This document shows, piece by piece, positions 700 through 18,265 of a stretch of DNA of 18,265 nt. The stretch lies in the IMG/VR virus record IMGVR_UViG_2541047922_000008. The stretch is one strand, 5' to 3'. Numbering within the stretch: the stretch's first letter is position 1; every line of letters begins with the position of its first letter. The notes under the pieces are model-generated. The model did no database searches, was not told where the DNA came from, and was given only the letters and a program-made list of their open reading frames with translations. Source of the DNA: a virus. Lineage: Duplodnaviria; Heunggongvirae; Uroviricota; Caudoviricetes. The translations under genes were made by a program, and so were the position numbers.

Positions 700-1014
700 T
701 CACGATAGTTCCGTTTTGTTGAATTCAATTATATCAAGGTCAGAACTTTCGTAATCCTTACCGAATAAAGCAAAACATATCGCGTCAAGTTCTCTCTTAT
801 GTTTGGACGCCCGATCATAATTACCACCCCAACAGCAAATGAATCCACCAAGTACTGCTGATTCAAAAAGTAATGATGCTGCATCAATATGTCTGAACCA
901 GGAGTCTATAAGTAAAGCAGAGAGTGATATTAATGTTCCCCACCCGCCAATCCTTCTCCATTTCTCAGCTTCATATTTAAGAGAAGCAATATATTCAATT
1001 TTATCTCTCGTCAT
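700..1014 (-). CDS. small membrane protein, 104 aa, two predicted TM helices
   Basis: Hydrophobic stretches IGGWGTLISLSALLIDSWF and AASLLFESAVLGGFICCWGG. Its start overlaps the upstream stop as ATGA, with a GGTGGGGA SD. AT-rich relative to the upstream gene. Confidence 0.75.
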   Translation of the reverse strand: MTRDKIEYIASLKYEAEKWRRIGGWGTLISLSALLIDSWFRHIDAASLLFESAVLGGFICCWGGNYDRASKHKRELDAICFALFGKDYESSDLDIIEFNKTELS

Positions 1015-3770: not shown

Positions 3771-5830
3771 TATGGGTTCCTCAAGAAGCACGCTGCCGCT
3801 ACAGAATAAACCTTCGATTCGTTCTGGACTGTCTTAATCTGTTCATCCAACTCAGCCAGGAGATCAGAAAGTTTTGTCGGGTTTCCGGTTTCCGGGTGAG
3901 CTATAGTCAGCTCAGGATTGGCAACAGCCATGTCCCTAGCAGCCATAAGGTCATAGCTGTTGGATGAGAGAACCTGCCCTGTATCTGGATCAACGCTGAC
4001 GTCCCCTCTGTGTTCACCAGCCGATGAGAAAGCACTTTCAGCACGAGGGACAGGCGATTCACTAATTGGCTCTGATGATGTTTCATATCTGACACCATTT
4101 TCTTCAAAAACCTTTTGTATTTCATGGTATTGCTCTTGGTAAGTATCAGATATATCTGATCGCAATGGACCATCAAGCCCTCGCGCCATCCCCCCAACAT
4201 TTACAGGCTGACCATCATTAAGTTGCCTGTATGCTTCATCCATGGCGTCAACATGGCTGTTGATGCTCTCATTGCTGGTGTGAAGCACTGGTGACGATTC
4301 AATATCGTAATGAAGCCCCTCATTCAAAATGTGGGCTGCATCAATATCGCTTGGTTTTATTCTTTCCCTCGCCCGGATACCAAAAACTTTTTCTACTGCG
4401 GCTTCCAGTTTCATATTGCGAAGACGCATACTTACGAGTAACCGTAACTGCTCAGGTGTAACGGTTCCAACCTGAATACCACTGTATCTGAATATATAGG
4501 CTTTAAAACCTGAAATAATTTTTTCCCATGATGAAACGCTTGTCTTTAGAGATGGATTTACTGCATGTGCGGCAACTTCTTCAGCGTACAACCACTCAGG
4601 ATATGTTTCAGGGTACTCACCCCTTTTCTTATATTCATAATATTGTGACATCCCATATGCAAATTCAGGATAGTCAGAATGCTTGTTTGCAGATTTAAGT
4701 ACAGCATTAGCTAGCTTTCTGGCCTTCCAGTCAGGGTAATGGCGCTGCTCAAGATGAAGCGCCTCGTGATGAAGGGTTTCTAACAGTTCTTCATGGTCTT
4801 TTAATCCATTAATATTTATTCTTATTATTGGTTCTTTTCCAGAAGCTACTGTCACATGACCTTTATTCAGAAGTATTTCTCCATCACTATTTTTTATTGC
4901 TGGTTCATTAATAAGTTCTATTACTCCTGAATCAGATAAATCACGAACCATTGACTCAATGTTACCATCAGGAGATTGCTGATAATGTTCACCAAAAGTT
5001 GATTTTATTTCTTCTGCAGAAATGTTCGACTCTGTACCATCATGGTTATTATGGGTAGTCAGGTGATGAACGCCACCAAAGACCCCGCCTAAAACGGCAT
5101 CGACTAACATCGCCTGACCGTCAAATACCCGGTACTGTTTTGCCATCTCCGTGTAGCCTTTTTCCTCCAGTGTTGCGCCGACAGAGTAACGGTTCAGTCC
5201 ACCGAATCCGGTGTTGATTGCCACACCTGAGGCAATGCGCGTTGCCAGTGTGGTGCCGACGGCAGCGGGTAAGGCCATACCCACAGCATTGAAAAGGCTT
5301 TGCTGCGTTGCCAGGTTACGCGCCGTAGCCTCGTCTACTCCCTTCCCTTTAAAATCCTGATAGGACTGCTCATACGTAGAACTGAAAGCTGTAGCAGCGC
5401 CGATGAGGGGACCGCCAAACATAGTTGTTCCGATTGCAGGAACAAATTTACCAAGCTCATTTAATACCTCAGCCGCCATTCCCTGACTGCCTGCATCAGG
5501 CTTCACATAGCTGCGGGCATCCTGTAACTGTTTTCCGATCGTGTCGTATGTATCATTCAGTGTTTTGTCAGCATCAGGGAACATCTCCCGAAAAATATTA
5601 ACAGTCGGTGCCACGTCTGCGGTAAATGCCGGATCGCTAATCAGGCGCTTGCTGAATCCGACGGCAGACTGCGCGAGACCGAGAGTCCCCTCCGCCACGC
5701 CGCTCAAAAGTGCAGTACCTGAACCCTGGAAGGGAGTCGGATCGTAGTCTTCTGGCCTTGCTGGGTTGGCAACTGTTTTGTCGTCAATCCATGCCTGACC
5801 TTCTGGAGCCAAAGAAAAAACATCAGACAT
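3770..5830 (-). CDS. large protein (686 aa) with Gly-rich hydrophobic N-terminal third and a central HEXXH (zincin-like) region
   Basis: Long ORF. GAGGG SD 7 nt upstream and a TAATG overlap with the 843-aa gene stop. N-terminal segments PAIGTTMFGGPLIGAATAF, NAVGMALPAAVGTTLATRIASGVAINTGFGG and VDAVLGGVFGGV. HEALH at residues 355-359. Confidence 0.85.
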   Translation of the reverse strand: MSDVFSLAPEGQAWIDDKTVANPARPEDYDPTPFQGSGTALLSGVAEGTLGLAQSAVGFSKRLISDPAFTADVAPTVNIFREMFPDADKTLNDTYDTIGKQLQDARSYVKPDAGSQGMAAEVLNELGKFVPAIGTTMFGGPLIGAATAFSSTYEQSYQDFKGKGVDEATARNLATQQSLFNAVGMALPAAVGTTLATRIASGVAINTGFGGLNRYSVGATLEEKGYTEMAKQYRVFDGQAMLVDAVLGGVFGGVHHLTTHNNHDGTESNISAEEIKSTFGEHYQQSPDGNIESMVRDLSDSGVIELINEPAIKNSDGEILLNKGHVTVASGKEPIIRININGLKDHEELLETLHHEALHLEQRHYPDWKARKLANAVLKSANKHSDYPEFAYGMSQYYEYKKRGEYPETYPEWLYAEEVAAHAVNPSLKTSVSSWEKIISGFKAYIFRYSGIQVGTVTPEQLRLLVSMRLRNMKLEAAVEKVFGIRARERIKPSDIDAAHILNEGLHYDIESSPVLHTSNESINSHVDAMDEAYRQLNDGQPVNVGGMARGLDGPLRSDISDTYQEQYHEIQKVFEENGVRYETSSEPISESPVPRAESAFSSAGEHRGDVSVDPDTGQVLSSNSYDLMAARDMAVANPELTIAHPETGNPTKLSDLLAELDEQIKTVQNESKVYSVAAACFLRNP
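4754..4768 (-). other. HEXXH motif (HEALH) of the 686-aa protein
   Basis: The reverse complement of 4754-4768 is CAC GAG GCG CTT CAT = H E A L H, in the context LETLHHEALHLEQRH. The motif alone does not prove a metallopeptidase. Confidence 0.55.
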
Positions 5831-8361
5831 TATTCAACCCTCACGACAATAGCTTCATTGGTTCTGGGATCTGTTGCCCAGCGTCCGCTACCATTTACCA
5901 GCCGATACCGGTTATTGCCGATATTAACTGGTGTGAAGTTTGACACTGCATTTACGTTAAGTCCGGCTTCTTTCAGTGCTTGTTTCGCAGATGTGGTATA
6001 GCGATCTTTGAAAGTAGATTTATCCATGCCGAAAGGCATTACAACGTCGCCGCCATTAAAATCCTTGTATATACCGCCAGTAGCATACTTCACGGCATCA
6101 GCAACAGTGTCTGTATCAGGCATACTGGTTCTTACCGTAGATGCATCACCTGATTGATAAGCTATTCCTGCGTAAGCGGCTTTGAAAAGGCTATAACTGA
6201 TCTGACGTAACTGCGGGTTACGGGCAAATGCGTTACCTACCTGTTTGTCGAAAGCGTCTTTCATCTTATCTTCGCTCGGCAACTGTACCGGAGTTATGCC
6301 CGCATTCTTCATGGCCTTCGTCGGATTCAGTAGTTGGTCACCGGAAAGAATAACCTTTGCAACGTCGTACTTGTTCATCGTCGGCTTATACCCGATGAAC
6401 TGACTATATGGGATCGACGGTCTGGTGTTATCGTACTGATTATCCGGCGTGCCCAGCAGCAGCGCAGAATAGGCTGTTGCCGCACTGTTCGGAGCAATTA
6501 CAGATGCCACCTGCCGTATTGCTGGCGCAGGCAGCTTCTCCCCCATGCTCTGCAACAGTTTAATTGTCTGGTCAACGTTCTGAGTGCCGCGCACCTGCTG
6601 TGCCAGCGCAGCCGCCTCTTCACTGTTGAGGATTGGGGCATTAATTCCCAACGCGCGTAAGCTTTCCTGCGACGAGAAACGGTTAGCCACCTCGGCAGTG
6701 ATGTCGTCAGGGTTGTTGCTGGTGATCGGCTTATAGGCTCCGATTTCCACCGCTGCACTAAACGGATTATTCTGCCTCTGGGTTATTACCTTCGTGGCTG
6801 CCGCCGATACCCGGTCGAATAACTCCGCACGAGACGCATACCCCTCCCCTGTCTCACCAGTATCCGGGCGTAATTGCTCAACATATGCGGTAATGCTGCT
6901 TGTCGGCATGTTGCGGAAAGAGCCTATATACTGTCCGGCGATCTGCAAATTTCTGAACTCGGTATATCGCAGGTTTCCTTCTCTGACACCATAAGCAGCA
7001 ATGAACTCACCCTCACCAGGCGGGTTAGGAAATTCAACGCCACGCATATACGCAGCCGTTGCATCGCGAACCCGGCTTTCGAGCATCGTTCTATATTCAG
7101 CCTGCTGCTGTCTGGCTAATGCATCCGTCTGTCGCAACACGCTGGCCTGATCTGATTCACTTAAAGCATCGAACCAAGCTACACCGGTATAACGTTTATT
7201 TTTTGTCGGTAGCTGAGAAAGCCCCAGTGCGGCACTAACGCCAGCGGCCAATTGCTGATCACTGTACGGCTGACTGCCTTGCTCATGATGAATAATTGCT
7301 TTGCACAGAGATTTCAGTGTGTCAGGATTTGATGCGTCAAGCGGCTGGTCAGGAGTTACACCGAGCTGAGCACATACTGCCCGTATATAAGCATCAGTTT
7401 TATTATCATCACTGGCCGGTGCCCAGCGATTAATTATTTCGCTGATGGTGTCATAACCCTGACGCTGATACGACAGCAAATTGCGACCAAGCGCGCGAAT
7501 ACCGTGTTCAGGGGTTTCGAATTTGGCAAAGCGACCATCATCACCAGTCTGCCCAACCCACGGATTAGTTTTGCTGTATTCAAGATTGCCGGGGTTATTG
7601 TTGCGTATACCGCGGGTACGATCGGAAGAGCCACTATCTGCTACAGCACGGCGAGATCCAGCAGCAGTATCGCTTAACTCGCCGTTTTGCTGTCTTACCT
7701 GAAGATAGTTTGCTCCAATAGCATTTTGAGCAGTTGCTTTTGCTGTTGCTTCTTTAAACTCGATTTTCTTGGCCTGGATTTGCTCGTCGCTCCAGCCATG
7801 CGCAATACCGTAATCCTCAATTTGCTGGAAAGTTTGCGTATTAGCCAATATGTATGCTGCGTTGTCGCCATATAATGCTGAGGCATTTTTACCATTATTC
7901 AGCAGTGTCGCCTGAAACTGGCCTTCTTCGTAGGCATTTATTTGCCCTATCTCGTACCTCCCGGCCTGCGTAGCGAACTGAATACGCTGCTGCTGCGCCT
8001 GCTGCATGAAAGCATTACGAGCCTGTTCATCCGGCAGCGACATAGCCAGTTGTTCGATCTGAGCATCAAACTGCTGTGTATACTCATGGCCTTTTCCAAT
8101 AGCATTTTTCCCTTTCAGGTTAAGCAATCCTGTTTCAGGATTATTCAGCAGATCACTGCCTGTCTGACTGAGTTTAAGGGATGCCTCCTGAACCAAGGCA
8201 ATATTGGCGCGCTGTTTTGCCTGACCAAGAACATCAATTGCCTCTGTCCCTGCCCGAACAAAAGCATCACCAATACCTGGCTGAGAAAACGTCTGCAAGC
8301 CTGCTGACTGAACTCCACGGCTCTCAACCTGGCGTCCGGATACTGTTGGTACGACTGGCAT
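5830..8361 (-). CDS. large protein (843 aa) with a central RNNNPGN-type domain, phage virion-associated cell-wall-hydrolase-like
   Basis: Long ORF with AGGGGG SD. The N-terminus is Q/A-rich and helical (MPVVPTVSGRQVESRGVQSAGLQTF...). Residues ~250-372 read RGIRNNNPGNLEYSKTNPWVGQTGDDGRFAKFETPEHGIRALGRNLLSYQRQGYDTISEIINRWAP. I recall this pattern from phage structural or putative muramidase proteins (memory, unverified). Confidence 0.85.
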   Translation of the reverse strand: MPVVPTVSGRQVESRGVQSAGLQTFSQPGIGDAFVRAGTEAIDVLGQAKQRANIALVQEASLKLSQTGSDLLNNPETGLLNLKGKNAIGKGHEYTQQFDAQIEQLAMSLPDEQARNAFMQQAQQQRIQFATQAGRYEIGQINAYEEGQFQATLLNNGKNASALYGDNAAYILANTQTFQQIEDYGIAHGWSDEQIQAKKIEFKEATAKATAQNAIGANYLQVRQQNGELSDTAAGSRRAVADSGSSDRTRGIRNNNPGNLEYSKTNPWVGQTGDDGRFAKFETPEHGIRALGRNLLSYQRQGYDTISEIINRWAPASDDNKTDAYIRAVCAQLGVTPDQPLDASNPDTLKSLCKAIIHHEQGSQPYSDQQLAAGVSAALGLSQLPTKNKRYTGVAWFDALSESDQASVLRQTDALARQQQAEYRTMLESRVRDATAAYMRGVEFPNPPGEGEFIAAYGVREGNLRYTEFRNLQIAGQYIGSFRNMPTSSITAYVEQLRPDTGETGEGYASRAELFDRVSAAATKVITQRQNNPFSAAVEIGAYKPITSNNPDDITAEVANRFSSQESLRALGINAPILNSEEAAALAQQVRGTQNVDQTIKLLQSMGEKLPAPAIRQVASVIAPNSAATAYSALLLGTPDNQYDNTRPSIPYSQFIGYKPTMNKYDVAKVILSGDQLLNPTKAMKNAGITPVQLPSEDKMKDAFDKQVGNAFARNPQLRQISYSLFKAAYAGIAYQSGDASTVRTSMPDTDTVADAVKYATGGIYKDFNGGDVVMPFGMDKSTFKDRYTTSAKQALKEAGLNVNAVSNFTPVNIGNNRYRLVNGSGRWATDPRTNEAIVVRVE
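7246..7614 (-). other. RNNNPGN-containing conserved domain inside the 843-aa protein
   Basis: The reverse complement of 7585-7605 is CGC AAC AAT AAC CCC GGC AAT = R N N N P G N. Domain limits were estimated by eye. Confidence 0.5.
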
Positions 8362-8796: not shown

Positions 8797-8946
8797 TTAC
8801 TTCTGGTAGTTACGCCATACTGATTTCCCGATCCCATCTATCCCCATTTCTTTTTCAGTGCGTTTAAGCGACCGTTTCAGGTCTTCTAAATTATCCGGTT
8901 GCTTTGGTGGCCTCTGTGCCTTGCTGGAACATTCCAGTCGTCGCAT
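8797..8946 (-). CDS. possible 49-aa basic protein (MRRLECSSKAQRPPKQPDNLEDLKRSLKRTEKEMGIDGIGKSVWRNYQK)
   Basis: Hand-found ORF below the track cutoff. Its stop lies 7 nt before the terminator. SD is weak and no family was recognised. Confidence 0.3.
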   Translation of the reverse strand: MRRLECSSKAQRPPKQPDNLEDLKRSLKRTEKEMGIDGIGKSVWRNYQK

Positions 8947-9030
8947 TGATATGCAATACCGTTCCTTGTCAGTACCCCAACTGCATTACTTCACCCCATC
9001 GCGCCGCCGCTCTTCGGTACAGGGTTTTAG

Positions 9031-10387: not shown

Positions 10388-10449
10388 GCTGTTTGTTCTC
10401 CGGTTTTAACGTGATAGTTACGCTTGTTTACACTCTTACAGTGAAATTT

Positions 10450-10574
10450 TGCGGGTTACAATCGCACATTTGCGGGTTATAACTGCCGTTTTGCGGGTTA
10501 CGTGCGGGTTATTGATTTCCTTTTTAATCATGCAGTTAATTAACTTATACACAGGATAACCCGCATAACCCGCA
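10450..10574. repeat. iteron array, putative replication origin
   Basis: TGCGGGTTA at 10450, 10471, 10492 and 10503 (spacings 21, 21, 11 bp). An AT-rich core follows (attgatttcctttttaatcatgcagttaattaacttatac). Two inverted copies TAACCCGCA sit at 10557 and 10566. The array lies directly downstream of the primase/helicase stop. Confidence 0.75.
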
Positions 10575-10597
10575 ACTTTTTACCTCACACAGGGAAG

Positions 10598-12724
10598 TTA
10601 ATCTTCTGCTTCAGGCTGGAACATCAGCACGTAAAAAATATGCTGCTTCCCGCCAATCCTGCCGAGCGCCTTTTTCTTGTAACGGCGGTCGCCTCCCGCT
10701 TCCAGCATTCCGGCAGCACTCAACGCGCGGGCAAAGTGAGACGGATTAAATCCCTGTGCTATCTCACCCTCAAACACATGCGGGAACGTGTAAAAACGGA
10801 ACTCGTCATCTTCGTTTCTGATACTCCCCTTTCTGTATCCGGCAAGGTCTTTAATCGGTAAATCACGCTCGTCGCTGTTTGGATAGGGAAGGTATCGACT
10901 GAACCCGAACGACGACAAAAACGCCTCAGCCTGTTCAACCATCTGTTTAAATTCCCTGTTGCCCGTGCCGAATTCCTTCACCCAGGCATTAAAGTTATGC
11001 TGAACTGCATCACGGCACGCCTGAACATCCCAGCCTGTAACATGACCGGAAAGCACAAGCGCGGCCTCCAGTACGGCGAATCTTTCCCCCACACGGTGAA
11101 CCTGCTCGCCGTAGCTCTCCGGTATCAGGTTGCGCCACCGCTCGCGACATGCCCTTACCGCGTCCTTTGCCTCCTGCTGGTGGCCTGCCAGCCATTTAAC
11201 CCACTCACGACCTGCCGCCCCGTGATTTTCTGTCCAGGCATCTTTTAACGCGTCTGCGTGCGCCTTTCCGGTGCTGTATTCGTGAAACTGCGAGGCCTTT
11301 TCCATCGGTACGTTAAGCAGACGGACAAGCTGCCCCGCTTTAATTTTTATCCCTTCCGTTTTGAGGAATGTTTCAACGTCCATTTCTCCGGTGCTGATTG
11401 CCACCGTGCGCCAGTGTTTTATCTCCCTGTTGCCGCCGTCCTTCGCCCCCTGTAATTTCCCGGAACCGTTAAACAGCGTATAGGCTGACGTGGACACCTC
11501 CCGTGCGTTTCCGGCCTGGCCTATTTCATCCAGGGGTAACAGCCCGTCATTATGTGCTTCGGCCTCGTTGGCGATACCTAACGCCGTTCCGTACCAGGTC
11601 AGCCGTTGCGCGTCCGGCTCTCCCCATAAACTTGATGCAATGTTCTGTGTGGTGGTTTTACCTGCTGATGATTGCTCAAAAAGATGAACCCCGAAGCCGT
11701 CAGCACCCACCAGCCCGATTAATGGTGCAGATAGCGATACCGCCACACCCAGCATCATGGACGGATTACCACCAGCCAGCCGTGCCACGGTATCGCGCCA
11801 GCCCTCCGCTGTTCCCGCCACGGAATAGCCATTAACAGCGGCAGTTTTTCCGGTAAACAGGATGGGTTTCTCTGATTCACCAATGACCGAACCGTCCGGC
11901 ATGATGTACGCACCAAAATGCCACCCCGTTGTTGTGCTTAACTGCCATTCCTCATGGTTTCCGCTTAACTGCATCCAGTCAGCCAGGATAGCCCTGTATT
12001 TGCCGTTGGTCGTCACGTTAAGGCCGTGGTCTTTCAGCAACCGCCAGCCGTCACGGTCACCAATGCCTCCGCACGGGACCGCCATTGTAATGACCTCATG
12101 GTTTGCTGGTTTTTTCCAGCGCATTACGCGGTAATGCTCTTTTCCGATTGTTCCTGTTCCCAGTAGTTCAAGCGGAGAACATAACCACGTCTCAGGCCGG
12201 ATAATTTCGCCTGACTGCTTGTCCACTTTGGGCGTTACCCAGAAAACACCATCGACGCGACTTTCAACACGAGGCTTTAATTCGTCATCATAATTTCCGG
12301 TGAAATTTGTCTTCGCCGGAAGGTTGATCACCAGACTGTTACCGTGTTCCGCATCATCCTTCAGTCCAGCCATGCGCGGTGTCCAGTCCTCCGGCTGCTG
12401 ATCAACAAAGCTGCGGTAGCAACGCGCCTCCTTCACACCCGCCACTGCAAGCAGTGTCGCTATCTGTGTAAGGTGCTGCTCTGATATTTCACCAGCACGA
12501 TAAACGCGCACGTAATAGCGCCCTTTGTCGATGATTTGCGTGTCTGCCAGACTCGCCAGTTGTTCCGGTCCAAGAATAACTGGATGTGTATCATCTGCCG
12601 CAATATGCTTTCCGGCCCATTCGCTCCACTCTTTCGCATGTGCCCAGGCATCACTACCCGCAAAGATAATCACCTCCGTCATTTTGTCTTTCGGCTGGTG
12701 CTTTAAATTCGGTGCGCGTTTCAT
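10598..12724 (-). CDS. DUF927-type P-loop primase/helicase (functional analogue of P4 alpha / PICI Pri-Rep), 708 aa
   Basis: Walker A is FEQSSAGKTT; the reverse complement of 11654-11662 is GGT AAA ACC = GKT. Walker B-like LLPLDEIGQ. Overall resemblance to DUF927 replication proteins of islands. ATGA overlap with the upstream gene and iterons immediately downstream. Confidence 0.85.
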   Translation of the reverse strand: MKRAPNLKHQPKDKMTEVIIFAGSDAWAHAKEWSEWAGKHIAADDTHPVILGPEQLASLADTQIIDKGRYYVRVYRAGEISEQHLTQIATLLAVAGVKEARCYRSFVDQQPEDWTPRMAGLKDDAEHGNSLVINLPAKTNFTGNYDDELKPRVESRVDGVFWVTPKVDKQSGEIIRPETWLCSPLELLGTGTIGKEHYRVMRWKKPANHEVITMAVPCGGIGDRDGWRLLKDHGLNVTTNGKYRAILADWMQLSGNHEEWQLSTTTGWHFGAYIMPDGSVIGESEKPILFTGKTAAVNGYSVAGTAEGWRDTVARLAGGNPSMMLGVAVSLSAPLIGLVGADGFGVHLFEQSSAGKTTTQNIASSLWGEPDAQRLTWYGTALGIANEAEAHNDGLLPLDEIGQAGNAREVSTSAYTLFNGSGKLQGAKDGGNREIKHWRTVAISTGEMDVETFLKTEGIKIKAGQLVRLLNVPMEKASQFHEYSTGKAHADALKDAWTENHGAAGREWVKWLAGHQQEAKDAVRACRERWRNLIPESYGEQVHRVGERFAVLEAALVLSGHVTGWDVQACRDAVQHNFNAWVKEFGTGNREFKQMVEQAEAFLSSFGFSRYLPYPNSDERDLPIKDLAGYRKGSIRNEDDEFRFYTFPHVFEGEIAQGFNPSHFARALSAAGMLEAGGDRRYKKKALGRIGGKQHIFYVLMFQPEAED

Positions 12725-13025: not shown

Positions 13026-13283
13026 TTATTTCCCGGTATGGGGTTCTTCTTTATATTTATGGGCTAACAAATCTGGTAATTGCCTGTATTTATCCTCGGC
13101 AATATATTCAGAATAATCGACAGCACTGTTCAGTATATCTAACGCCGTTTCATGCTCCAGATTCGAAACTATAAGGAACGTTGCTACTTTTAGCATATTC
13201 GCGATATGCAAAAGAGCATCAATTTCATTTTTTGGCGCTTCACTGAATTTTTGCTCCAGAAGAATAAATCGTTCATCACGCAT
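13026..13283 (-). CDS. hypothetical protein, 85 aa, AT-rich
   Basis: AGGGGGA SD. Its start overlaps the Icd-like stop (ATGCGTGA). No family recognised. Confidence 0.6.
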   Translation of the reverse strand: MRDERFILLEQKFSEAPKNEIDALLHIANMLKVATFLIVSNLEHETALDILNSAVDYSEYIAEDKYRQLPDLLAHKYKEEPHTGK

Positions 13284-13479
13284 AGTATTCCCCCTGACGG
13301 ATGCGGGCAGTAAATACCATCACGCAGCCAGTCGGGGATTGCTGACGGGCTTCCTGTTCGCTGGCGGCCTCGATGTGTATTACGCGTGGTTGTGCGGTGC
13401 TCAGGGCGATAAAACGCCAGATGTATTTATTCAGGTTGTGCGAGTCCCGCCCTTGCGGGTGTGTGGTATGATTTAACAT
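13276..13479 (-). CDS. icd: Icd-like (host cell division inhibitor family) small protein, 67 aa
   Basis: Internal ATG (13477-13479) of the spurious 396-aa track ORF, with a GAGGT SD. The sequence MLNHTTHPQGRDSHNLNKYIWRFIALSTAQPRVIHIEAASEQEARQQSPTGCVMVFTARIRQGEYYA has the Y-I-W-x-F ... SE-x-EAR ... F-x-AR pattern I associate with Icd-like proteins of P4-like elements (memory). Confidence 0.65.
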   Translation of the reverse strand: MLNHTTHPQGRDSHNLNKYIWRFIALSTAQPRVIHIEAASEQEARQQSPTGCVMVFTARIRQGEYYA

Positions 13480-13484
13480 AGCTA

Positions 13485-13582
13485 CCTCGATACGCTTTCT
13501 ATCGTTGGTGGTTAGACGCCCTGCATGTGTTGCGAGCACTGCGGGGCGTTGCTTAATTTGAGCAATGCAACCCAAACTGTGC
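13485..13582 (-). ncRNA. structured leader, candidate C4/CI/IsrK-type antisense immunity RNA
   Basis: ~100-nt leader between the predicted start site and icd. A 9-bp stem with one mismatch and a 14-nt loop spans 13517-13548. A 5-bp hairpin at 13488-13504 abuts the SD. In P1 and P4-like elements a C4/CI RNA precedes icd. No covariance-model search was possible. Confidence 0.35.
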
Positions 13583-13588
13583 GCACAG

Positions 13589-13616
13589 ATTAAAATCATG
13601 TGTGCGCACATGTCAA
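13589..13616 (-). promoter_or_regulatory. strong sigma70-like promoter of the icd-primase operon
   Basis: Minus strand reads TTGACA (13616-13611), 16-nt spacer, TTTAAT (13594-13589). Confidence 0.6.
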
Positions 13617-13619
13617 TAC

Positions 13620-13648
13620 TTAACTTCTCACTTTTTTTGCTGTATTGT
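13620..13648 (+). promoter_or_regulatory. candidate promoter of the + strand RHH gene
   Basis: TTAACT (13620-13625), 17-nt spacer, TATTGT (13643-13648). Back-to-back with the minus-strand promoter. Confidence 0.4.
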
Positions 13649-13684
13649 GTGCGCCCATCAAATCCATTTAAGTGAGGTGTACCA

Positions 13685-13882
13685 ATGTCTAGCGGAAACA
13701 CAAACAACAAATCAGCAAAGAAAAATATTCGATTCCCGCACGAGCTTATAGATGGGATTGATGCCAGTGTTGAACAAGAAAAATTAACTAATCCTAGTGC
13801 TAATTTTTCCGCATGGGTCTTAGATGCCTGTGGACGCAAATTAAAATATGAACAGCGCCGGAAGGCCAAAGAGCAGGAGTAA
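13685..13882 (+). CDS. small RHH-type regulator (YlcI/YnfO-DUF3950-like), 65 aa; likely repressor acting at the TGTGCGCACA sites
   Basis: GAGGTG SD 5 nt upstream. KNIRFPHELIDGIDASV (strand + helix) and NFSAWVLDACGRKL (helix) fit an RHH fold. Divergent from the operator-bearing promoter. Confidence 0.65.
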   Translation: MSSGNTNNKSAKKNIRFPHELIDGIDASVEQEKLTNPSANFSAWVLDACGRKLKYEQRRKAKEQE

Positions 13883-13909
13883 CCATCACCAGCGCCGTGG
13901 TGCGGTGAA

Positions 13910-13922
13910 CTGTGGCGCACAG
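13910..13922. promoter_or_regulatory. fourth operator-like site (CTGTGgCGCACAG)
   Basis: Same sequence as the 13577-13588 palindrome with one inserted G. Located between the two small + strand ORFs. Confidence 0.4.
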
Positions 13923-13939
13923 GGTTACAGGTATCTACG

Positions 13940-14137
13940 ATGACTGACAAATCATTAAAGAAATTATCCTCATCCAGGAAAAAACAACGCAAAAATGCGG
14001 TAAGCGAACAAGAACAGGAAAGATTTGCGCCATGTGCGTTTGTCCTTGAGAAGTTCTTAAAAGAGTACAGGCGCACAAAAATGGAATCGCATACCTGGAA
14101 AACATCGCAGTATGGCGATGCTAAAGAGCAGGAATAG
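13940..14137 (+). CDS. possible small basic protein, 65 aa
   Basis: ORF with a weak SD, ending with the same AKEQE-stop as the upstream gene. A + strand terminator follows at 14228. Confidence 0.35.
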   Translation: MTDKSLKKLSSSRKKQRKNAVSEQEQERFAPCAFVLEKFLKEYRRTKMESHTWKTSQYGDAKEQE

Positions 14138-14227
14138 CCCACCAGCAAGCCAGCACACTGATCACATTGCCCACCAGCCGCAAATCTGGCATTGTTGGCG
14201 ATGCGTTTGATTTCCTTTGTTCCCACT

Positions 14228-14256
14228 GGCGACCTATCCCGGTCGCCTTTGTTTTG
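14228..14256 (+). terminator. rho-independent terminator of the + strand small-gene unit
   Basis: ggcgacc-tatccc-ggtcgcc followed by tttgttttg. Confidence 0.7.
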
Positions 14257-14305
14257 CCTGTTATCCAGCAACGGGGCGCTTTTTCTTTCTGTAACGTTCG
14301 GATCG

Positions 14306-14863
14306 TTACACATTGCTTTCACCCTCCAGAAAATCAGGCTGATATTTACGCCATAGCGCCCGCTCTTCTCGTTCCAGTGCATCTTTTGCCTCTTTGCATT
14401 GCTGTAACCTGTAACCGCGTTTGCTGGCTTCCTGTTGATATGCAGCCTGACGTTTACTGAAATCATTCAGCATGGCAAACGGAACACCATAACCCCCCGT
14501 TTTGCGGATTGAAGGAATCACCTCGCGGAATACCCAGTTACTGAAACGGTGCGCAAATGTGCCTGGTGTGGAAGCTTTACGGCTGCGGGCGATCAGTTTG
14601 TAGAAACCTGATTCAGAGACAACATTCCAGCTTCTGGCACCACCACGCTTACCGGAATGACCCTCGGTTAAAGCTAGGGTCATTACCTCATCGTTATCCA
14701 GAACTGAAACGGCATCAGTAACATTGCTGATTTCCAGCGCGGCACACACATCAGCGCCAACAAACCACGGCTCGCCGTTGATACTCACTATGCGCACCTG
14801 AATGTCATCGAATTTAATGACAGAGATTTCAGTGCGACCAGCATAAAAGACAGGTTTACGCAT
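14306..14863 (-). CDS. Bro-N domain protein (prophage antirepressor family), 185 aa
   Basis: IKFDDIQVRIVSINGEPWFVGADVCAALEISNVTDAVSVLDNDE matches the Bro-N pattern. 8-nt overlap with the upstream gene. Confidence 0.85.
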   Translation of the reverse strand: MRKPVFYAGRTEISVIKFDDIQVRIVSINGEPWFVGADVCAALEISNVTDAVSVLDNDEVMTLALTEGHSGKRGGARSWNVVSESGFYKLIARSRKASTPGTFAHRFSNWVFREVIPSIRKTGGYGVPFAMLNDFSKRQAAYQQEASKRGYRLQQCKEAKDALEREERALWRKYQPDFLEGESNV

Positions 14864-15731: not shown

Positions 15732-15929
15732 TCAGGCAGCCGTTCCGCGTGATTCGGCAATACGCTGATTGATCCATTCGTCAATTTCACTTTCAACGAA
15801 AGCAATCGCTCGCGAGCCAATTTTAACTGATGCAGGAAATTTACCTTGCCCCATAAGGCGATAAATCCATGCCTTGCTATATCCAGTTCTACGCTGAACT
15901 TCTGTTAAACGAATAAGCGTATTTGACAT
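15732..15929 (-). CDS. alpA: AlpA/Vis-family transcriptional regulator/excisionase, 65 aa
   Basis: LIRLTEVQRRTGYSKAWIYRLMGQGKFPASVKIGSRAIAFVESEIDEWI is the classic AlpA helix-turn-helix. GAGGT SD. Confidence 0.9.
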   Translation of the reverse strand: MSNTLIRLTEVQRRTGYSKAWIYRLMGQGKFPASVKIGSRAIAFVESEIDEWINQRIAESRGTAA

Positions 15930-15998
15930 CTATTTACCTCATAACGTCTACTCAATTTGACGAGGTAATCATGGCACAGAAATAACGAATATTTTCAT

Positions 15999-16109
15999 AC
16001 CCTCAGGCCTAATGGTTACCGGAAGGAAATTAACCCTAAGGGTGATGGTAAAATTGACGGGGAAGATAAAAAAAATACCCTCAGGGTAACAGTAAATCAC
16101 CCTCAGGGT
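15999..16109. repeat. four copies of the 11-bp palindrome ACCCTNAGGGT upstream of alpA
   Basis: accctcaggcc at 15999 (imperfect), accctaagggt at 16033, accctcagggt at 16077, accctcagggt at 16099. Spacings are 34, 44 and 22 bp. Confidence 0.7.
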
Positions 16110-16124
16110 ATGTGGTATGGTGCG

Positions 16125-16928
16125 TTAATCCGGCTTTGCGTTCTTTTGGCTGTTGTCTCGGTTAATAGGGCAGGCAGTCCTCTCTATGAGCGTTGCAAGA
16201 GCATTACTTGCCCCCCACTGCTTAAGCTCCCTGGTTATCGCTTCTTGATTTCCCCTGGTGGCAAAATCATTTTCTGGATCGTAATTGGCCCACTCTCTGT
16301 TTCTAATCTCAATAGCCTTAGCTAATGGGTCTTTATCCCAGTATTTATATAAGTGTATCGGGCGCTCTTGCTCTAACTGCTCTATCCTTGCCCTTAACTC
16401 TGCGTTTTCTCTTTCCAGCATTGCGATTTGGGATAATAAATCATCCTCTGTACGCAACTCTTTCTTTTCAATATCGCGTCCTTGTGCCTCGTCATTTTCA
16501 GAAGAGTTAGCGCCTTCCAGCTTCGTTAACGCGTCAAGGACATCGGGAAAAATTGCGAAAATTTCACCCCTTATAAATCCAATGTTCTCAAATTCGGGAT
16601 CTTCCCAATAACCGGACACCAGAAAACCATTTTCATCCCTCTCACCAGGTAAACAACCATGTTTCCGAACCGCATCCAGATTTCTATAAAGAACATCATA
16701 ATCAAATTCATCCCGATACGGGTTACAAAAAGATTCCAACAGCTTAAATTCATTTACTGTGTACAGGCGGATATGTTCTCCGCTTATTCTCCTGAGTATC
16801 CAAGTTATGAGATCTGAAACATCATAATCATCACCAGCGACCTTAAGCACGACCTCAAGAAATTCACGTAAAGAAATAAAATCTTTTTTGTATTCGTTTA
16901 ATTCGGCATGAATATCAATCATACGCAC
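16125..16928 (-). CDS. hypothetical protein, 267 aa, AT-rich, central coiled-coil; cargo gene between int and alpA
   Basis: GAGGTG SD. LSQIAMLERENAELRARIEQLEQE is coiled-coil-like. No family recognised. Two 60-nt lines hand-counted gave 25/60 and 19/60 GC, visibly lower than neighbouring genes. Confidence 0.8.
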   Translation of the reverse strand: MRMIDIHAELNEYKKDFISLREFLEVVLKVAGDDYDVSDLITWILRRISGEHIRLYTVNEFKLLESFCNPYRDEFDYDVLYRNLDAVRKHGCLPGERDENGFLVSGYWEDPEFENIGFIRGEIFAIFPDVLDALTKLEGANSSENDEAQGRDIEKKELRTEDDLLSQIAMLERENAELRARIEQLEQERPIHLYKYWDKDPLAKAIEIRNREWANYDPENDFATRGNQEAITRELKQWGASNALATLIERTACPINRDNSQKNAKPD

Positions 16929-17032
16929 ACCTCAGCGTCCTCTACTGTAGTGGCTGTGCCAGCCCGTCGAGGTATACGGTTTTTCGGGAGCGACCCTAGA
17001 CACAGCCTTTTCTTTCGTCGCTCAAAGTCTAC

Positions 17033-17052
17033 TACTGTATACTCAACCAGTC
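17033..17052. promoter_or_regulatory. LexA (SOS) box-like sequence
   Basis: TACTGTATACTCAACCAGTC has CTG-N10-CAG and 14/20 identity to TACTGTATATATATACAGTA by my count. It lies ~105 nt upstream of the 267-aa gene and overlaps the integrase stop codon. Confidence 0.35.
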
Positions 17053-18265
17053 ATCCACATTTTCCGAACTTGCCATGCACCACGTTGCCGCCCTGTTCCA
17101 GTGAGTCCATATAGTCGGCGTACCACTGGAGCATCTCGCGCCGCCCGTCCAGATATTGCGCATGATTGTACGTGCCACGAATTGAGTTCTTATCAACGTG
17201 TGCAAGCTGCGTTTCTATCCACGCGGTGTTATAGCCCTGCTCATGTAAAATCGTGCTCATCGTGTGCCGGAACCCATGACCAGTAACGCGCCCAGAATAG
17301 CCAATACGACGAATAAGCACGTTCATCGCCATTTCACTCATCGGCTTACTGTGCTGGATTCGACCAGGGAAAATAAACTGATACTGCCCCGTCATGTGTT
17401 TTAACTGTTCCAGAATAGCGATCGCCTGTTCTGAAAGCGGCACACAATGAGGACGGCGCATCTTCATTCGTTCTTTAGGCACTTCCCACAAACGATTATC
17501 AAAATCGATCTCCTGCCATTCTGCCTGTCGTAATTCCCCTGGCCGGAGCCCTGTCAGAATCAATAATCGCATACCCAGCTTGACGATCTGGCTTCCGGTG
17601 TACGTATTAAGAACGCGGAAAAATTCCGGCAGTTCGTCGGCCTTCAAATAGGCATAATGCTCTTTTTTGTGTGGAGCAAATGCGCTTGCCAGATCTGGTG
17701 CGGGGTTATATTCAGCGCGTCCGGTGATGATTGCGTACCGGAACACCTCGCCGCATCGCTGGCGAACCTTACGCAATTTTTCGGTCGCCCCACGGTCATT
17801 AAGACGGGAGAGAACCGCAAGCAACTCCATTGGCTTAATTTCTGCGATCGGCCTGCCGCCAATGTACGGAAAAACGTCTTTTTCAAACGTCTCGATCATT
17901 TCCTCGGCGTATGACGATGACCACCTGTCGATCCGCTTTTCATACCATTCGCGAGCGATACCCTCAAAAGTATTGCCAAATTTGCTCGCCTGTTCTCGCT
18001 TTTGAGCTTTTCTGGCCTCACTTGGATTTATACCACCAGCAAGAAGCCTTTTAGCCTCATCCCTTGCCGCTCTGGCATCAGACAGAGACACATCAGGGTA
18101 CACGCCCAACGACAACATTTTGGGCTTTCCTGCAAATCTGTAACGTAGTCGCCACCCTTTCGAGCCGTTCGGCTCAATGAGTAACGAAAGCCCGTTACCG
18201 TCATTGAGTGTATAAGCCTTTTCTTTCGGCTTCGCGCGCCTGATAGCAAGGTCTGAAAGCAGCAT
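17051..18265 (-). CDS. int: P4-type tyrosine integrase, 404 aa
   Basis: N-terminus LSDLAIRRAKPKEKAYTLNDGNGLSLLIEPNGSKGWRLRYRFAGKPKMLSLGVYPDVSLSDAR is typical of P4-family integrases. The C-terminal catalytic region contains RPGELRQAEW, HGFRHT and RGTYNHAQY. Confidence 0.95.
   Translation of the reverse strand: MLLSDLAIRRAKPKEKAYTLNDGNGLSLLIEPNGSKGWRLRYRFAGKPKMLSLGVYPDVSLSDARAARDEAKRLLAGGINPSEARKAQKREQASKFGNTFEGIAREWYEKRIDRWSSSYAEEMIETFEKDVFPYIGGRPIAEIKPMELLAVLSRLNDRGATEKLRKVRQRCGEVFRYAIITGRAEYNPAPDLASAFAPHKKEHYAYLKADELPEFFRVLNTYTGSQIVKLGMRLLILTGLRPGELRQAEWQEIDFDNRLWEVPKERMKMRRPHCVPLSEQAIAILEQLKHMTGQYQFIFPGRIQHSKPMSEMAMNVLIRRIGYSGRVTGHGFRHTMSTILHEQGYNTAWIETQLAHVDKNSIRGTYNHAQYLDGRREMLQWYADYMDSLEQGGNVVHGKFGKCG

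What the first reader, a model, noticed from the sequence alone, without database searches (positions are those of the whole stretch)
15999..16109. Array of four ACCCTNAGGGT palindromes between the cargo gene and alpA
- Three perfect copies and one imperfect copy of an 11-bp palindrome occur within 111 bp, at spacings of 34, 44 and 22 bp. An A8 tract lies among them.
- Four copies of an 11-mer in a non-coding stretch are far beyond chance.
- The motif differs from the TGTGCGCACA operators, so a second DNA-binding protein controls alpA or excision. Candidates are AlpA/Vis itself, the integrase arm-binding domain, or the 267-aa protein.
Basis: seen in the sequence. Interest (0 to 1): 0.5.

Follow-up and report, generated by a model that had tools for sequence, protein, structure and literature searches.

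The report
Operator array upstream of satellite alpA
The repeated ACCCTNAGGGT palindromes are real and conserved, and they most likely serve as docking sites for the uncharacterised 267-aa protein encoded just upstream, which would then control the alpA master switch of this E. coli phage-satellite island.

Summary
There are three perfect ACCCTNAGGGT dyads (16033, 16077, 16099), one two-mismatch copy (15999), spacings of 34/44/22 bp and an A8 tract. None of 200 shuffles reached three matches.

The window is an EcCIMP1-like Gram-negative PICI inserted next to a tRNA-Gly gene. The array lies between a 267-aa ORF ("ORF-X") and alpA.

Across related islands the dyads are footprint-conserved while the DNA between them diverges. 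Their spacings stay near multiples of about 10.5-11 bp, and copy number varies by 22- and 33-bp units.

The array tracks the conserved ~70-aa C-terminal domain of ORF-X, not AlpA, Int, AntA or Bro-N. Among 65 unique alpA upstream regions with AlpA at least 75% identical, the counts were 31/0/0/34. Physical linkage and shared ancestry inflate this association.

Islands without ORF-X carry other int-alpA genes, each with its own repeats.

In this E. coli lineage the two distal dyads plus T8 also form a strong intrinsic-terminator-like hairpin (-23.9 kcal/mol) after ORF-X. The T-run is not conserved family-wide.

Best reading: the array is the operator set of a new, unannotated regulator that gates the alpA promoter. 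Whether it activates or represses is unresolved, and binding itself is inferred, not shown.

The parts
16099..16109 (.). Dyad 1 (most distal from alpA), perfect ACCCTCAGGGT
   Evidence: conserved position in relatives
16077..16087 (.). Dyad 2, perfect ACCCTCAGGGT, 22 bp from dyad 1
   Evidence: the 22-bp unit is gained or lost between E. coli strains
16068..16075 (-). A8 on the plus strand, which is a U-tract on the minus strand directly after the dyad1/dyad2 hairpin
16075..16111 (-). Intrinsic-terminator-like hairpin made by dyad 1 pairing with dyad 2. It begins 13 nt after the ORF-X stop codon. Folding energy is -23.9 kcal/mol, z = -5.3.
   Evidence: the T-run is present only in the E. coli lineages
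16033..16043 (.). Dyad 3, perfect ACCCTAAGGGT. Its centre is 109 bp upstream of the alpA ATG, the most position-conserved dyad in the family. The 33-bp unit containing it is duplicated once or twice in most E. coli alleles.
15999..16016 (.). On the minus strand its AGGGTA half abuts the -35-like hexamer.
15968..15998 (-). Predicted alpA promoter, read directly from the sequence: -35-like ATGAAA (15998-15993) and extended -10 TGcCATGAT (15976-15968). The TGn + (C/A)AT(C/G/T)AT block is conserved in relatives. The tool's sigma-70 scan found nothing here.
   Evidence: direct reading; negative scan; inference, no TSS data
15935..15969 (-). alpA leader hairpin pairing UUACCUCGU with AUGAGGUAA, which sequesters the Shine-Dalgarno sequence. 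It is kept by compensatory changes in unrelated leaders.
15732..15929 (-). alpA (65 aa, PF05930 Phage_AlpA), the gene downstream of the array
   Evidence: role as PICI master activator taken from PMC6092414 and PMC11773190
16125..16928 (-). ORF-X (267 aa from GTG 16928; 265 aa from ATG 16922 as in RefSeq). It has a variable N-domain, a coiled coil (about 16365-16448) and a conserved four-helix C-domain (about 16155-16364). It is the proposed binder of the dyads.

Best explanation
**Proposal.** The dyads are the operator set of the island's own ORF-X protein. ORF-X has a variable N-terminal domain, a central coiled coil that would make it a dimer, and a conserved ~70-aa C-terminal four-helix domain.

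**Mechanism (inferred).**
- Dimers bind TACCCT-N-AGGGTA dyads placed about 2, 3 and 4 helical turns apart, so they lie on roughly one face of the DNA.
- The array runs from about -150 to a composite site that abuts the -35 region of a weak, extended -10 alpA promoter.
- Occupancy of the array therefore decides whether alpA, the master activator of the satellite cycle, is transcribed.
- The exchangeable N-domain is the likely input, for example a helper-phage protein.

**Second job in this E. coli lineage.** On the mRNA strand the two distal dyads pair into a -23.9 kcal/mol hairpin followed by U8. This forms an intrinsic terminator that would insulate alpA from int/ORF-X read-through.

**Sign of control.** This cannot be read from sequence.
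- All sites lie upstream of and touching a promoter with a poor -35, which slightly favours activation or recruitment (my estimate about 45%).
- A constitutive dimer plus a terminator and possible roadblock fits an Stl-like gatekeeper repressor (about 35%).

**Shown:** the sites, their conservation, phasing and co-occurrence with the ORF-X C-domain, and the hairpin.

**Inferred:** binding, the promoter, the direction of regulation and the input signal.
For: - **Non-random and local.** There are 3 matches against 0.24 expected, and 0 of 200 shuffles reach 3. No other cluster of half-sites exists in the island.
- **Footprint conservation.** In an alignment of 16 divergent spacers the dyad columns are conserved while the DNA between dyads is not. 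The promoter and leader are also conserved.
- **Taxonomic reach.** Dyads are retained in Salmonella, Citrobacter, Yersinia, Raoultella and Aeromonas modules.
- **Phasing.** Adjacent spacings cluster at 21-24, 32-34 and 42-44 bp. Vector strength is 0.86 at a 10.5-bp period. Copy-number changes come as 22- or 33-bp units.
- **Association.** Among 65 unique alpA upstream regions with AlpA at least 75% identical, the ORF-X C-domain versus array counts are 31/0/0/34. There is no association with AntA, Bro-N or the ORF-X N-domain. AlpA and Int identity ranges overlap between the two classes.
- **Unbiased scan.** Of 48 double-dyad stretches in 2.9 M viral contigs, 36 lie in ORF-X-alpA spacers.
- **Synteny.** All 66 ORF-X C-domain loci have an AlpA-family gene 70-260 bp downstream.
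- **Domain architecture.** The N-domain is swapped (33-100% identity) while the C-domain and array are kept. Coiled-coil-plus-C-domain (144 aa) and C-domain-only (66-72 aa) versions exist.
- **Specificity covariation.** TRGNQ-type C-domains have 80 of 91 dyads as ACCCT/AGGGT. TxPS-type have 11 of 21. Pasteurellaceae APKA-type have 0 of 4 and use ACTAT halves. The KPTQ-type locus L138 has TACTATNATAGTA.
- **Module logic.** Islands without ORF-X carry other int-alpA ORFs, each followed by its own repeats upstream of alpA. One of these is a distant homologue of the C-domain and has ATGGTGG/CCACCAT repeats.
- **Terminator.** Shown.
Against: - No binding data exist.
- The perfect co-occurrence is partly trivial. 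The array is the 3' flank of ORF-X, so the two are inherited as one cassette, and the loci are phylogenetically related.
- One C-domain variant (L131, TKPKST segment) keeps ACCCT dyads despite divergence. This weakens the covariation argument.
- The promoter is my own reading, and the tool's sigma-70 scan found none.
- In EcCIMP1 the alpA promoter responds to the helper phage without any ORF-X. An ORF-X-type regulator is therefore not universally needed.
Confidence: 0.62

Rival explanations
1. The dyads act only at the RNA level. They are hairpin elements of the ORF-X 3' UTR (an intrinsic terminator or attenuator) and have no protein operator function.
For: - Dyads 1 and 2 fold into a -23.9 kcal/mol hairpin (z = -5.3) followed by U8, 13 nt after the ORF-X stop.
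- Dyad 3 and the proximal site can also pair in the full spacer fold.
- The array always lies at the 3' end of ORF-X.
Against: - The T-run after the distal pair reaches at least 6 of 8 in only 13 spacers (at least 5 of 8 in 15) out of 27 that have such a pair. Fourteen further spacers have no 21-25-bp pair at all.
- What is conserved is the exact sequence ACCCT/AGGGT, not merely pairing.
- Spacing keeps helical phase.
- Single dyads, direct-repeat half-sites (TACCCT-N-ACCCT-N-AGGGTA) and a site abutting the -35 do not fit a terminator.
Confidence: 0.1
2. The dyads are bound by a factor not encoded next to them, such as a helper-phage activator or repressor, or a host protein. ORF-X is merely linked to them.
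For: - Published work shows that alpA promoters of Gram-negative PICIs are switched on by helper-phage induction, and the phage inducer is unknown (PMC6092414, PMC11773190).
- ORF-X has no recognisable DNA-binding fold.
Against: - Half-site type changes along with the ORF-X C-domain variant.
- Other int-alpA ORF types come with other repeats.
- EcCIMP1, the one relative with demonstrated helper induction, has neither ORF-X nor the dyads.
- A host factor would not explain why 34 sister islands in the same hosts lack the dyads.
Confidence: 0.12
3. The dyads are AlpA autoregulatory sites.
For: - AlpA activates its own promoter in EcCICFT073 and probably in EcCIMP1.
- The array lies upstream of alpA.
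Against: - Thirty-four unique islands with AlpA 75-97% identical have no dyad with at most 1 mismatch within 330 bp upstream of alpA.
- Dyads co-occur with three AlpA types that are only about 25-40% alike.
- The AlpA recognition region is nearly identical in EcCIMP1, which lacks the dyads.
Confidence: 0.06
4. The dyads are integrase arm-type or excisionase sites for recombination, or iterons of the replication origin.
For: - The integrase has an Arm-DNA-bind_3 domain.
- Repeats phased at 22 bp resemble iterons.
Against: - The sites are dyads, and no cluster of half-sites occurs anywhere else in the island, including towards its ends.
- A separate iteron-type origin (TTGCGGGTTA x4 direct plus inverted copies flanking an AT-rich core) lies directly downstream of the DUF927 primase at 10448-10583.
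- The array persists in islands with different replication genes: DUF927, a Zn_ribbon_DnaG ORF (L139) and D5_N/DUF5906 (L141).
Confidence: 0.03

Closest known systems
SaPI/PICI master repressor Stl (Rpr) and its operators in Gram-positive phage-inducible chromosomal islands
   Same: - The regulator gene lies next to int.
- It would control the first gene of the satellite's lytic programme.
- It pairs a conserved DNA-binding part with a highly variable part, the logic Stl uses to sense different helper-phage proteins (Stl biology as summarised in PMC6092414).
   Different: - ORF-X is co-oriented with its target rather than divergent.
- It has no detectable HTH or similarity to Stl.
- Its sites lie upstream of the -35 rather than over the promoter.
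- Repression and phage-protein binding are untested.
- The literature I could search says a global repressor in Gram-negative PICIs is 'unclear'.
EcCIMP1, the E. coli MP1 PICI mobilised by phage Kapi1 (PMC11773190)
   Same: - Same island type: P4-like int at a tRNA, alpA, AntA, Icd-like, a DUF927 primase and PerC (present in this island as a frameshifted pseudogene).
- Both carry large ORFs downstream of the replication genes. In EcCIMP1 these are annotated as ejection-protein-like (lytic transglycosylase, phage DNA ejection protein). I did not compare the window's three large ORFs with them.
- AlpA is close to the window's across the aligned region.
- Its alpA promoter region is helper-inducible and AlpA-autoactivated.
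   Different: EcCIMP1 has a 427-bp int-alpA spacer with no ORF-X and no ACCCTNAGGGT dyads. The module studied here is therefore an alternative regulatory cassette.
Phased multi-site activator promoters (OmpR at ompF/ompC, PhoB pho boxes, Mu Mor/C), from general knowledge
   Same: - The -35 is poor.
- The proximal site abuts or overlaps the -35.
- Further sites lie upstream at integral helical turns.
   Different: The resemblance was recalled, not tested. ORF-X is unrelated in sequence, and activation is unproven.
Intrinsic (Rho-independent) terminators
   Same: Dyads 1 and 2 plus U8 give a canonical hairpin and U-tract right after a stop codon.
   Different: - The stem is built from two copies of a sequence-conserved dyad.
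- The U-tract is missing in many relatives that keep the dyads.
- Termination is therefore an add-on, not the conserved function.
Rfam RF02996 int-alpA RNA motif
   Same: It occurs in the same int-to-alpA regulatory zone of these islands.
   Different: The hit is at 16939-17006, upstream of ORF-X. It does not overlap the dyad array, and no Rfam family matches the array.

Membership tests
Gram-negative PICI (EcCIMP1-like phage satellite) - for the island that hosts the array | Co-oriented int, alpA and primase genes, inserted at a tRNA gene | tested here: met
   int 17051-18265, alpA 15732-15929 and DUF927 primase 10598-12724 are all on the minus strand. A tRNA-Gly gene lies next to int in the identical record NZ_CP070115.
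Gram-negative PICI (EcCIMP1-like phage satellite) - for the island that hosts the array | Induction, excision and packaging dependent on a helper phage | not testable with these tools
   Only shown experimentally for EcCIMP1 and EcCICFT073.
Transcription-factor operator array | Repeated sequence-specific sites conserved against diverged flanks, placed at a promoter | tested here: met
   Footprint alignment; symmetrised site matrix with A-C-C-C-T / A-G-G-G-T at 90-100%; the site abuts the predicted -35.
Transcription-factor operator array | Demonstrated binding by a cognate protein | not testable with these tools
   Only co-occurrence (31/0/0/34) and half-site/C-domain covariation are available.
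Stl/Rpr-type PICI master repressor system | Regulator transcribed divergently from the operon it represses, with operators over the divergent promoters | tested here: not met
   ORF-X and alpA are co-oriented. All dyads lie upstream of the predicted -35.
Stl/Rpr-type PICI master repressor system | Recognisable HTH DNA-binding domain | tested here: inconclusive
Stl/Rpr-type PICI master repressor system | Derepression by direct binding of a helper-phage protein | not testable with these tools
   Suggested only by N-domain swapping.
Intrinsic terminator | Stable GC-containing hairpin immediately followed by a U-tract, downstream of a gene | tested here: met
   -23.9 kcal/mol hairpin at 16075-16111 followed by a U-tract, 13 nt after the ORF-X stop.
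Intrinsic terminator | Feature retained in homologous loci (needed if it is to explain the array as a whole) | tested here: not met
   The T-run reaches at least 6 of 8 in only 13 spacers. Twelve spacers with a dyad pair lack it and 14 have no such pair.
Integrase arm-type / RDF sites | Direct repeats flanking the att core, bound by the Int N-domain or Xis | tested here: not met
   The sites are dyad-symmetric, and no half-site clusters occur anywhere else in the island, including towards its ends.
Iteron replication origin | Directly repeated initiator sites next to an AT-rich region, linked to the rep/pri gene | tested here: not met
   An element of that kind lies at 10448-10583, next to the primase. 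The dyad array persists with different replication genes.
AlpA (PF05930) binding site | Presence wherever the same AlpA is present | tested here: not met
   None of 34 unique ORF-X-less islands with AlpA 75-97% identical carry a dyad.

The most novel reading that the evidence does not exclude
ORF-X may define an unannotated family of satellite-encoded, helper-phage-sensing regulators. The conserved C-terminal domain would be a new DNA-binding fold reading TACYMT-N-AKRGTA dyads. The swappable N-domains would each recognise a different helper-phage protein. More generally, the gene slot between int and alpA in Gram-negative PICIs would be an exchangeable 'regulator + operator' cassette. That cassette would be the missing layer explaining how these satellites couple alpA, and hence their whole cycle, to helper infection. 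It would be the functional counterpart of Stl in Gram-positive PICIs.
Probability: 0.3. Interest if true: 0.75.

Novelty: new variant of a known kind. Interest (0 to 1): 0.55.

Why it matters
AlpA is the master activator of Gram-negative phage-inducible chromosomal islands. How helper phages switch alpA on, and whether these islands have any regulator above AlpA, is stated as open in the papers I could read (PMC6092414; still not resolved in PMC11773190).

This locus offers a concrete, testable candidate: a protein family without any annotation, its precisely mapped sites, and natural variants. The variants include N-domain swaps, copy-number alleles of 3-6 dyads, and changes in half-site type.

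If confirmed, it would give three things:
- a handle on helper specificity of a widespread class of E. coli, Salmonella, Yersinia, Aeromonas and Pasteurellaceae satellites;
- a new small DNA-binding domain;
- a compact example of one sequence serving as both operator and terminator.

Tried and rejected
- **Genome-wide pattern scan.** Only Raoultella (L087), L117 and Aeromonas (L077) were relevant.
- **Sequence profiles.** Pfam, NCBIfam, PHROGs and PDB sequence profiles returned only coiled-coil noise.
- **N-terminal domains of the family.** A Pfam scan of 100 family members found no recurrent N-terminal domain.
- **The antiterminator 'AlpA' of P. aeruginosa.** It is a larger, Q-like protein that reads the site GGGACG, so it offers no model for the 65-aa PF05930 AlpA here. 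I rejected it as an analogue.
- **Literature search for the motif strings.** It returned only unrelated primers.
- **Phage genomes.** tblastn of ORF-X against 50,697 phage genomes gave no match.
- **Restriction site.** The core CCTNAGG matches, from my own memory, the Bsu36I/Eco81I recognition site. I judged this a coincidence, because conservation extends to the outer A/T positions and ACTAT half-sites break it.
- **Leader alignment.** RNAalifold on a heterogeneous alpA-leader alignment gave no consensus. The compensatory hairpin variants were read by eye.
- **Activator versus repressor.** I could not decide this from sequence.

Full report
**1. What is in the sequence**

The window matches E. 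coli FDAARGOS_1298 (NZ_CP070115) at 100% over the 1.3-kb stretch I queried. There it is an ~18-kb island inserted beside a tRNA-Gly gene, next to actS. All island genes relevant here are on the minus strand, in this order:
- a P4-type integrase (17051-18265);
- a 267-aa ORF with no family match, called ORF-X here (16125-16928);
- a 195-bp spacer;
- alpA (15732-15929, PF05930);
- then AntA, Bro-N, an Icd-like/YlcI region, DUF4222, a DUF927 primase, SSB, ProQ, a frameshifted PerC and three large ORFs.

This is the gene set of EcCIMP1, a recently described E. coli phage-inducible chromosomal island (PMC11773190).

The spacer holds the reported array:
- perfect ACCCTNAGGGT dyads at 16033, 16077 and 16099;
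- a two-mismatch copy at 15999;
- spacings of 34, 44 and 22 bp;
- an A8 run at 16068-16075.

Shuffles give 0.24 matches per window, and none of 200 reaches three. The imperfect copy is better described as half of an 18-bp imperfect palindrome, 15999-16016, which recurs in relatives.

**2. The array is conserved as sites, not as sequence**

About 148 of 5,426 complete E. coli genomes carry this spacer. Alleles differ by gain or loss of a 33-bp unit (one dyad) or a 22-bp unit (one dyad). This gives 3-6 sites and spacer lengths of 194, 205, 227 and 260 bp. The window's four-site allele is the minority. The 227-bp, five-site allele dominates.

I then fetched more distant modules through ORF-X homologues, from Salmonella, Citrobacter, Yersinia and metagenomes, and through IMG/VR. 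In an alignment of 16 spacers that share few 8-mers, the ACCCT and AGGGT columns are conserved while the DNA between dyads is not. Downstream, the promoter-like block and the alpA leader are conserved again.

A symmetrised matrix from 127 sites gives A-C-C-C-T-N-A-G-G-G-T at 90-100% per position, with a weaker T/A preference one and two positions outside. Adjacent spacings cluster at 21-24, 32-34 and 42-44 bp, so phase coherence is highest near 10.5-10.8 bp. The sites therefore sit on roughly one face of the helix. These loci are related, so the counts are not independent. Even so, the contrast between conserved dyads and scrambled inter-dyad DNA is a classical footprint.

**3. Which protein goes with the array**

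I asked which neighbouring gene predicts the array. IMG/VR yielded 80 loci encoding AlpA at least 75% identical to the window's, giving 65 unique alpA-upstream regions.

| Gene / domain | present, array | present, no array | absent, array | absent, no array |
|---|---|---|---|---|
| ORF-X C-terminal domain | 31 | 0 | 0 | 34 |
| ORF-X N-domain | 14 | 0 | 17 | 34 |
| AntA | 17 | 15 | 14 | 19 |
| Bro-N | 2 | 5 | 29 | 29 |

"Array" here means at least two dyads with at most 1 mismatch in the 330 bp upstream of alpA. Further points:
- The 34 islands without the domain include some whose AlpA is 97% identical.
- Int and AlpA identity ranges overlap between the two classes.
- EcCIMP1 itself has an AlpA close to the window's across the aligned region, but no ORF-X and no dyads.
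- Conversely, the dyads accompany the C-domain next to three very different AlpA types. In Aeromonas sobria the AlpA is only 39% identical, and the 271-aa upstream protein matches the C-domain only by profile comparison (hhalign probability 86%).
- An unbiased scan of 2.9 million viral contigs for two dyads within 45 bp found 48 stretches. Thirty-six are ORF-X-alpA spacers and the other 12 are unrelated tandem repeats.

A caveat applies. The array is the 3' flank of ORF-X, so co-inheritance alone would produce much of this association. The more telling points are these:
- Recombination has swapped the N-domain (down to 33% identity, or removed it altogether) while leaving the C-domain and array together.
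- Half-site preference shifts with C-domain type. TRGNQ-type has 80 of 91 dyads as ACCCT/AGGGT. TxPS-type has 11 of 21, the rest being hybrids with ACTAT. Pasteurellaceae APKA-type has none. The KPTQ-type locus has TACTATNATAGTA.
- Islands lacking ORF-X carry other genes in the same int-alpA slot, each followed by its own repeats just upstream of alpA. Examples are TACCGCAATTGCGGTA x2, TTTGCATGCAG repeats, GTTCCAAAA repeats, and ATGGTGG/CCACCAT repeats behind a distant homologue of the C-domain.

This is the signature of exchangeable regulator-operator cassettes.

**4. What ORF-X looks like**

The family is small. There are 113 cluster representatives at E <= 1e-3 among 1.84 billion proteins. 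The conserved domain is always C-terminal, and the N-termini are diverse with no recurrent Pfam domain. It is absent from 50,697 phage genomes.

AlphaFold2 (pLDDT 77) predicts three parts:
- an alpha/beta N-domain;
- a disordered linker followed by a 28-residue helix that scores as coiled coil;
- a four-helix C-domain.

No sequence or fold library gave a significant match. DNA binding by the C-domain is therefore an inference from genomic context, not from homology. The invariant residues are a P, D, R, W and the ACPI-R tail, with an RN-EW helix and the TRGNQ segment as candidate specificity determinants.

**5. Position relative to alpA expression signals**

Reading the minus strand gives these features:
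- a conserved TGn-(C/A)AT(C/G/T)AT block (15976-15968), which looks like an extended -10;
- a weak -35-like ATGAAA (15998-15993), whose first base is the last base of the proximal AGGGTA half-site.

On that reading the sites span roughly -38 to -150. The proximal composite palindrome is centred near -46, and nothing lies over the -10 or the start site. The tool's generic sigma-70 scan found no promoter, so this is my inference and needs a mapped TSS.

Published work on related islands shows that alpA promoters are silent without a helper phage. They are induced on helper induction and boosted by AlpA itself. The phage signal, and any regulator above AlpA, are unknown (PMC6092414, PMC11773190). 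An island-encoded site-specific regulator with a variable sensor-like domain, bound at this promoter, fits that gap.

**6. A second function in this lineage**

On the mRNA strand, dyads 1 and 2 pair with each other. The stem has one central mismatch, the energy is -23.9 kcal/mol and z = -5.3. A U-tract follows, and the hairpin starts 13 nt after the ORF-X stop codon. This is a textbook intrinsic terminator that would insulate alpA from int/ORF-X transcription.

The T-run is found only in the E. coli lineages. It reaches at least 6 of 8 in 13 spacers. Twelve spacers with a 21-25-bp dyad pair lack it, and 14 have no such pair. Termination therefore explains the A8 tract and the 22-bp pair here. 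It does not explain why the dyad sequence and phasing are conserved from E. coli to Aeromonas.

**7. Rivals**

- *AlpA autoregulatory sites, Int arm or RDF sites, and origin iterons* are each contradicted by a specific test: the association tables, the absence of other half-site clusters in the island, and a separate iteron origin at 10448-10583 next to the primase.
- *A purely RNA-level role* is contradicted by sequence-level conservation and by family members without a U-tract.
- *Binding by a helper-phage or host factor* cannot be excluded, but it does not explain the covariation with the C-domain or the cassette pattern.

**8. Direction of control**

The site layout (poor -35, proximal site touching it, phased upstream sites) resembles activator-dependent promoters. 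A constitutively dimeric protein, a terminator or possible roadblock between it and its target, and the Stl precedent all suggest a gatekeeper repressor. I put activation at about 45%, repression at about 35% and something else at about 20%. Sequence alone cannot settle this.

**9. Verdict**

The finding is real and more interesting than a generic repeat. It is a conserved, phased operator-like array tied to an unannotated protein family at the control point of a phage satellite. AlpA, Int and an excision role are not supported, and the terminator was missed. Novelty: a new variant of a known kind (a regulator-operator module of a mobile element). Interest is moderate to high for the satellite field, conditional on experiments that are simple to run.

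Noticed in passing
window 16939-17006 (- strand): There is an Rfam RF02996 'int-alpA RNA' hit (46.9 bits, gathering score 35.8) between the int stop and the ORF-X start. It lies directly upstream of ORF-X and does not overlap the dyad array.
   Followed up: partly
window 15935-15969 (- strand); also L164, L172, L175, L179, L181, L184 leaders: The alpA leader forms a hairpin in which an anti-SD arm (UUACCUCGU) pairs with the Shine-Dalgarno region (AUGAGGUAA). Unrelated leaders keep the pairing through different sequences (CUCCUGUAG/CUACAGGAG, ACACCUU/AAGGUG, CUUCUUAGUAU/AUACUAAGGAG). If the TSS lies after the predicted -10 (15968-15973), promoter-initiated transcripts would lack the anti-SD arm. 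Only read-through transcripts would then be translationally silent. This is speculative.
   Followed up: partly
window 10448-10583: An iteron-type origin lies directly downstream of the DUF927 primase gene. It has four direct TTGCGGGTTA repeats in a 21-bp register (10448-10512) and two or three inverted TAACCCGCA copies (10556-10583), flanking an AT-rich palindrome (10532-10546).
   Followed up: partly
window 13276-14466 and 13578-13657: The 396-aa ORF listed mechanically here is almost certainly spurious. RefSeq annotates an Icd-like gene, a YlcI/YnfO gene and a small hypothetical gene in this ~1-kb zone. TGTGCGCACA dyads sit at 13578, 13601 and 13648 (the last with 1 mismatch), so there is a second, different operator-like set. 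At the <=1-mismatch level this count was not beyond chance: 16 of 200 shuffles gave at least 3.
   Followed up: no
L164, L172, L174, L181 (IMG/VR loci), spacers upstream of alpA: Islands without ORF-X have other ORFs in the int-alpA slot, each with its own repeats just upstream of alpA:
- a 238-aa protein, a distant homologue of the ORF-X C-domain, with ATGGTGG/CCACCAT repeats;
- a 219-aa protein with TACCGCAATTGCGGTA x2;
- a 346-aa protein with TTTGCATGCAG repeats;
- a 255-aa protein with GTTCCAAAA-type direct repeats.
This suggests a general swappable regulator-operator cassette.
   Followed up: partly
L139/L140 (Salmonella) 3699-4435; L136 (Yersinia) 2659-3462: In these islands the ORF-X function appears split into two genes: a ~101-108-aa ORF followed by a 144-153-aa protein carrying the coiled coil and C-domain. 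In Salmonella the two overlap by 4 nt. The Salmonella form is very widespread (listed in more than 1,800 index blocks).
   Followed up: no
window 1014-8361 (- strand): There are three large co-oriented ORFs (843, 686 and 925 aa) annotated as hypothetical. The equivalent zone of EcCIMP1 holds genes annotated 'lytic transglycosylase domain' and 'phage DNA ejection protein'. I did not compare them. Their role (hijacked virion or ejection proteins versus defence) was not examined.
   Followed up: no
window about 8797-9022 (L001 13148-13373): The PerC-family regulator gene of the island is annotated as frameshifted in the identical RefSeq record. PerC of EcCIMP1 was reported to repress LEE expression.
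   Followed up: no
L005 (E. coli C9) and L007 (E. coli 52F4): These are decayed islands that retain int, ORF-X and the dyad array but have lost downstream genes. One has an IS5 after alpA. In the other, alpA is truncated to its first ~23 nt and fused to a RepA-helicase fragment.
   Followed up: no
dyad core, e.g. window 16079-16085: The core CCTNAGG equals, from my own memory, the Bsu36I/Eco81I restriction site. I judged this coincidental, because conservation extends beyond it and ACTAT half-site variants break it.
   Followed up: no
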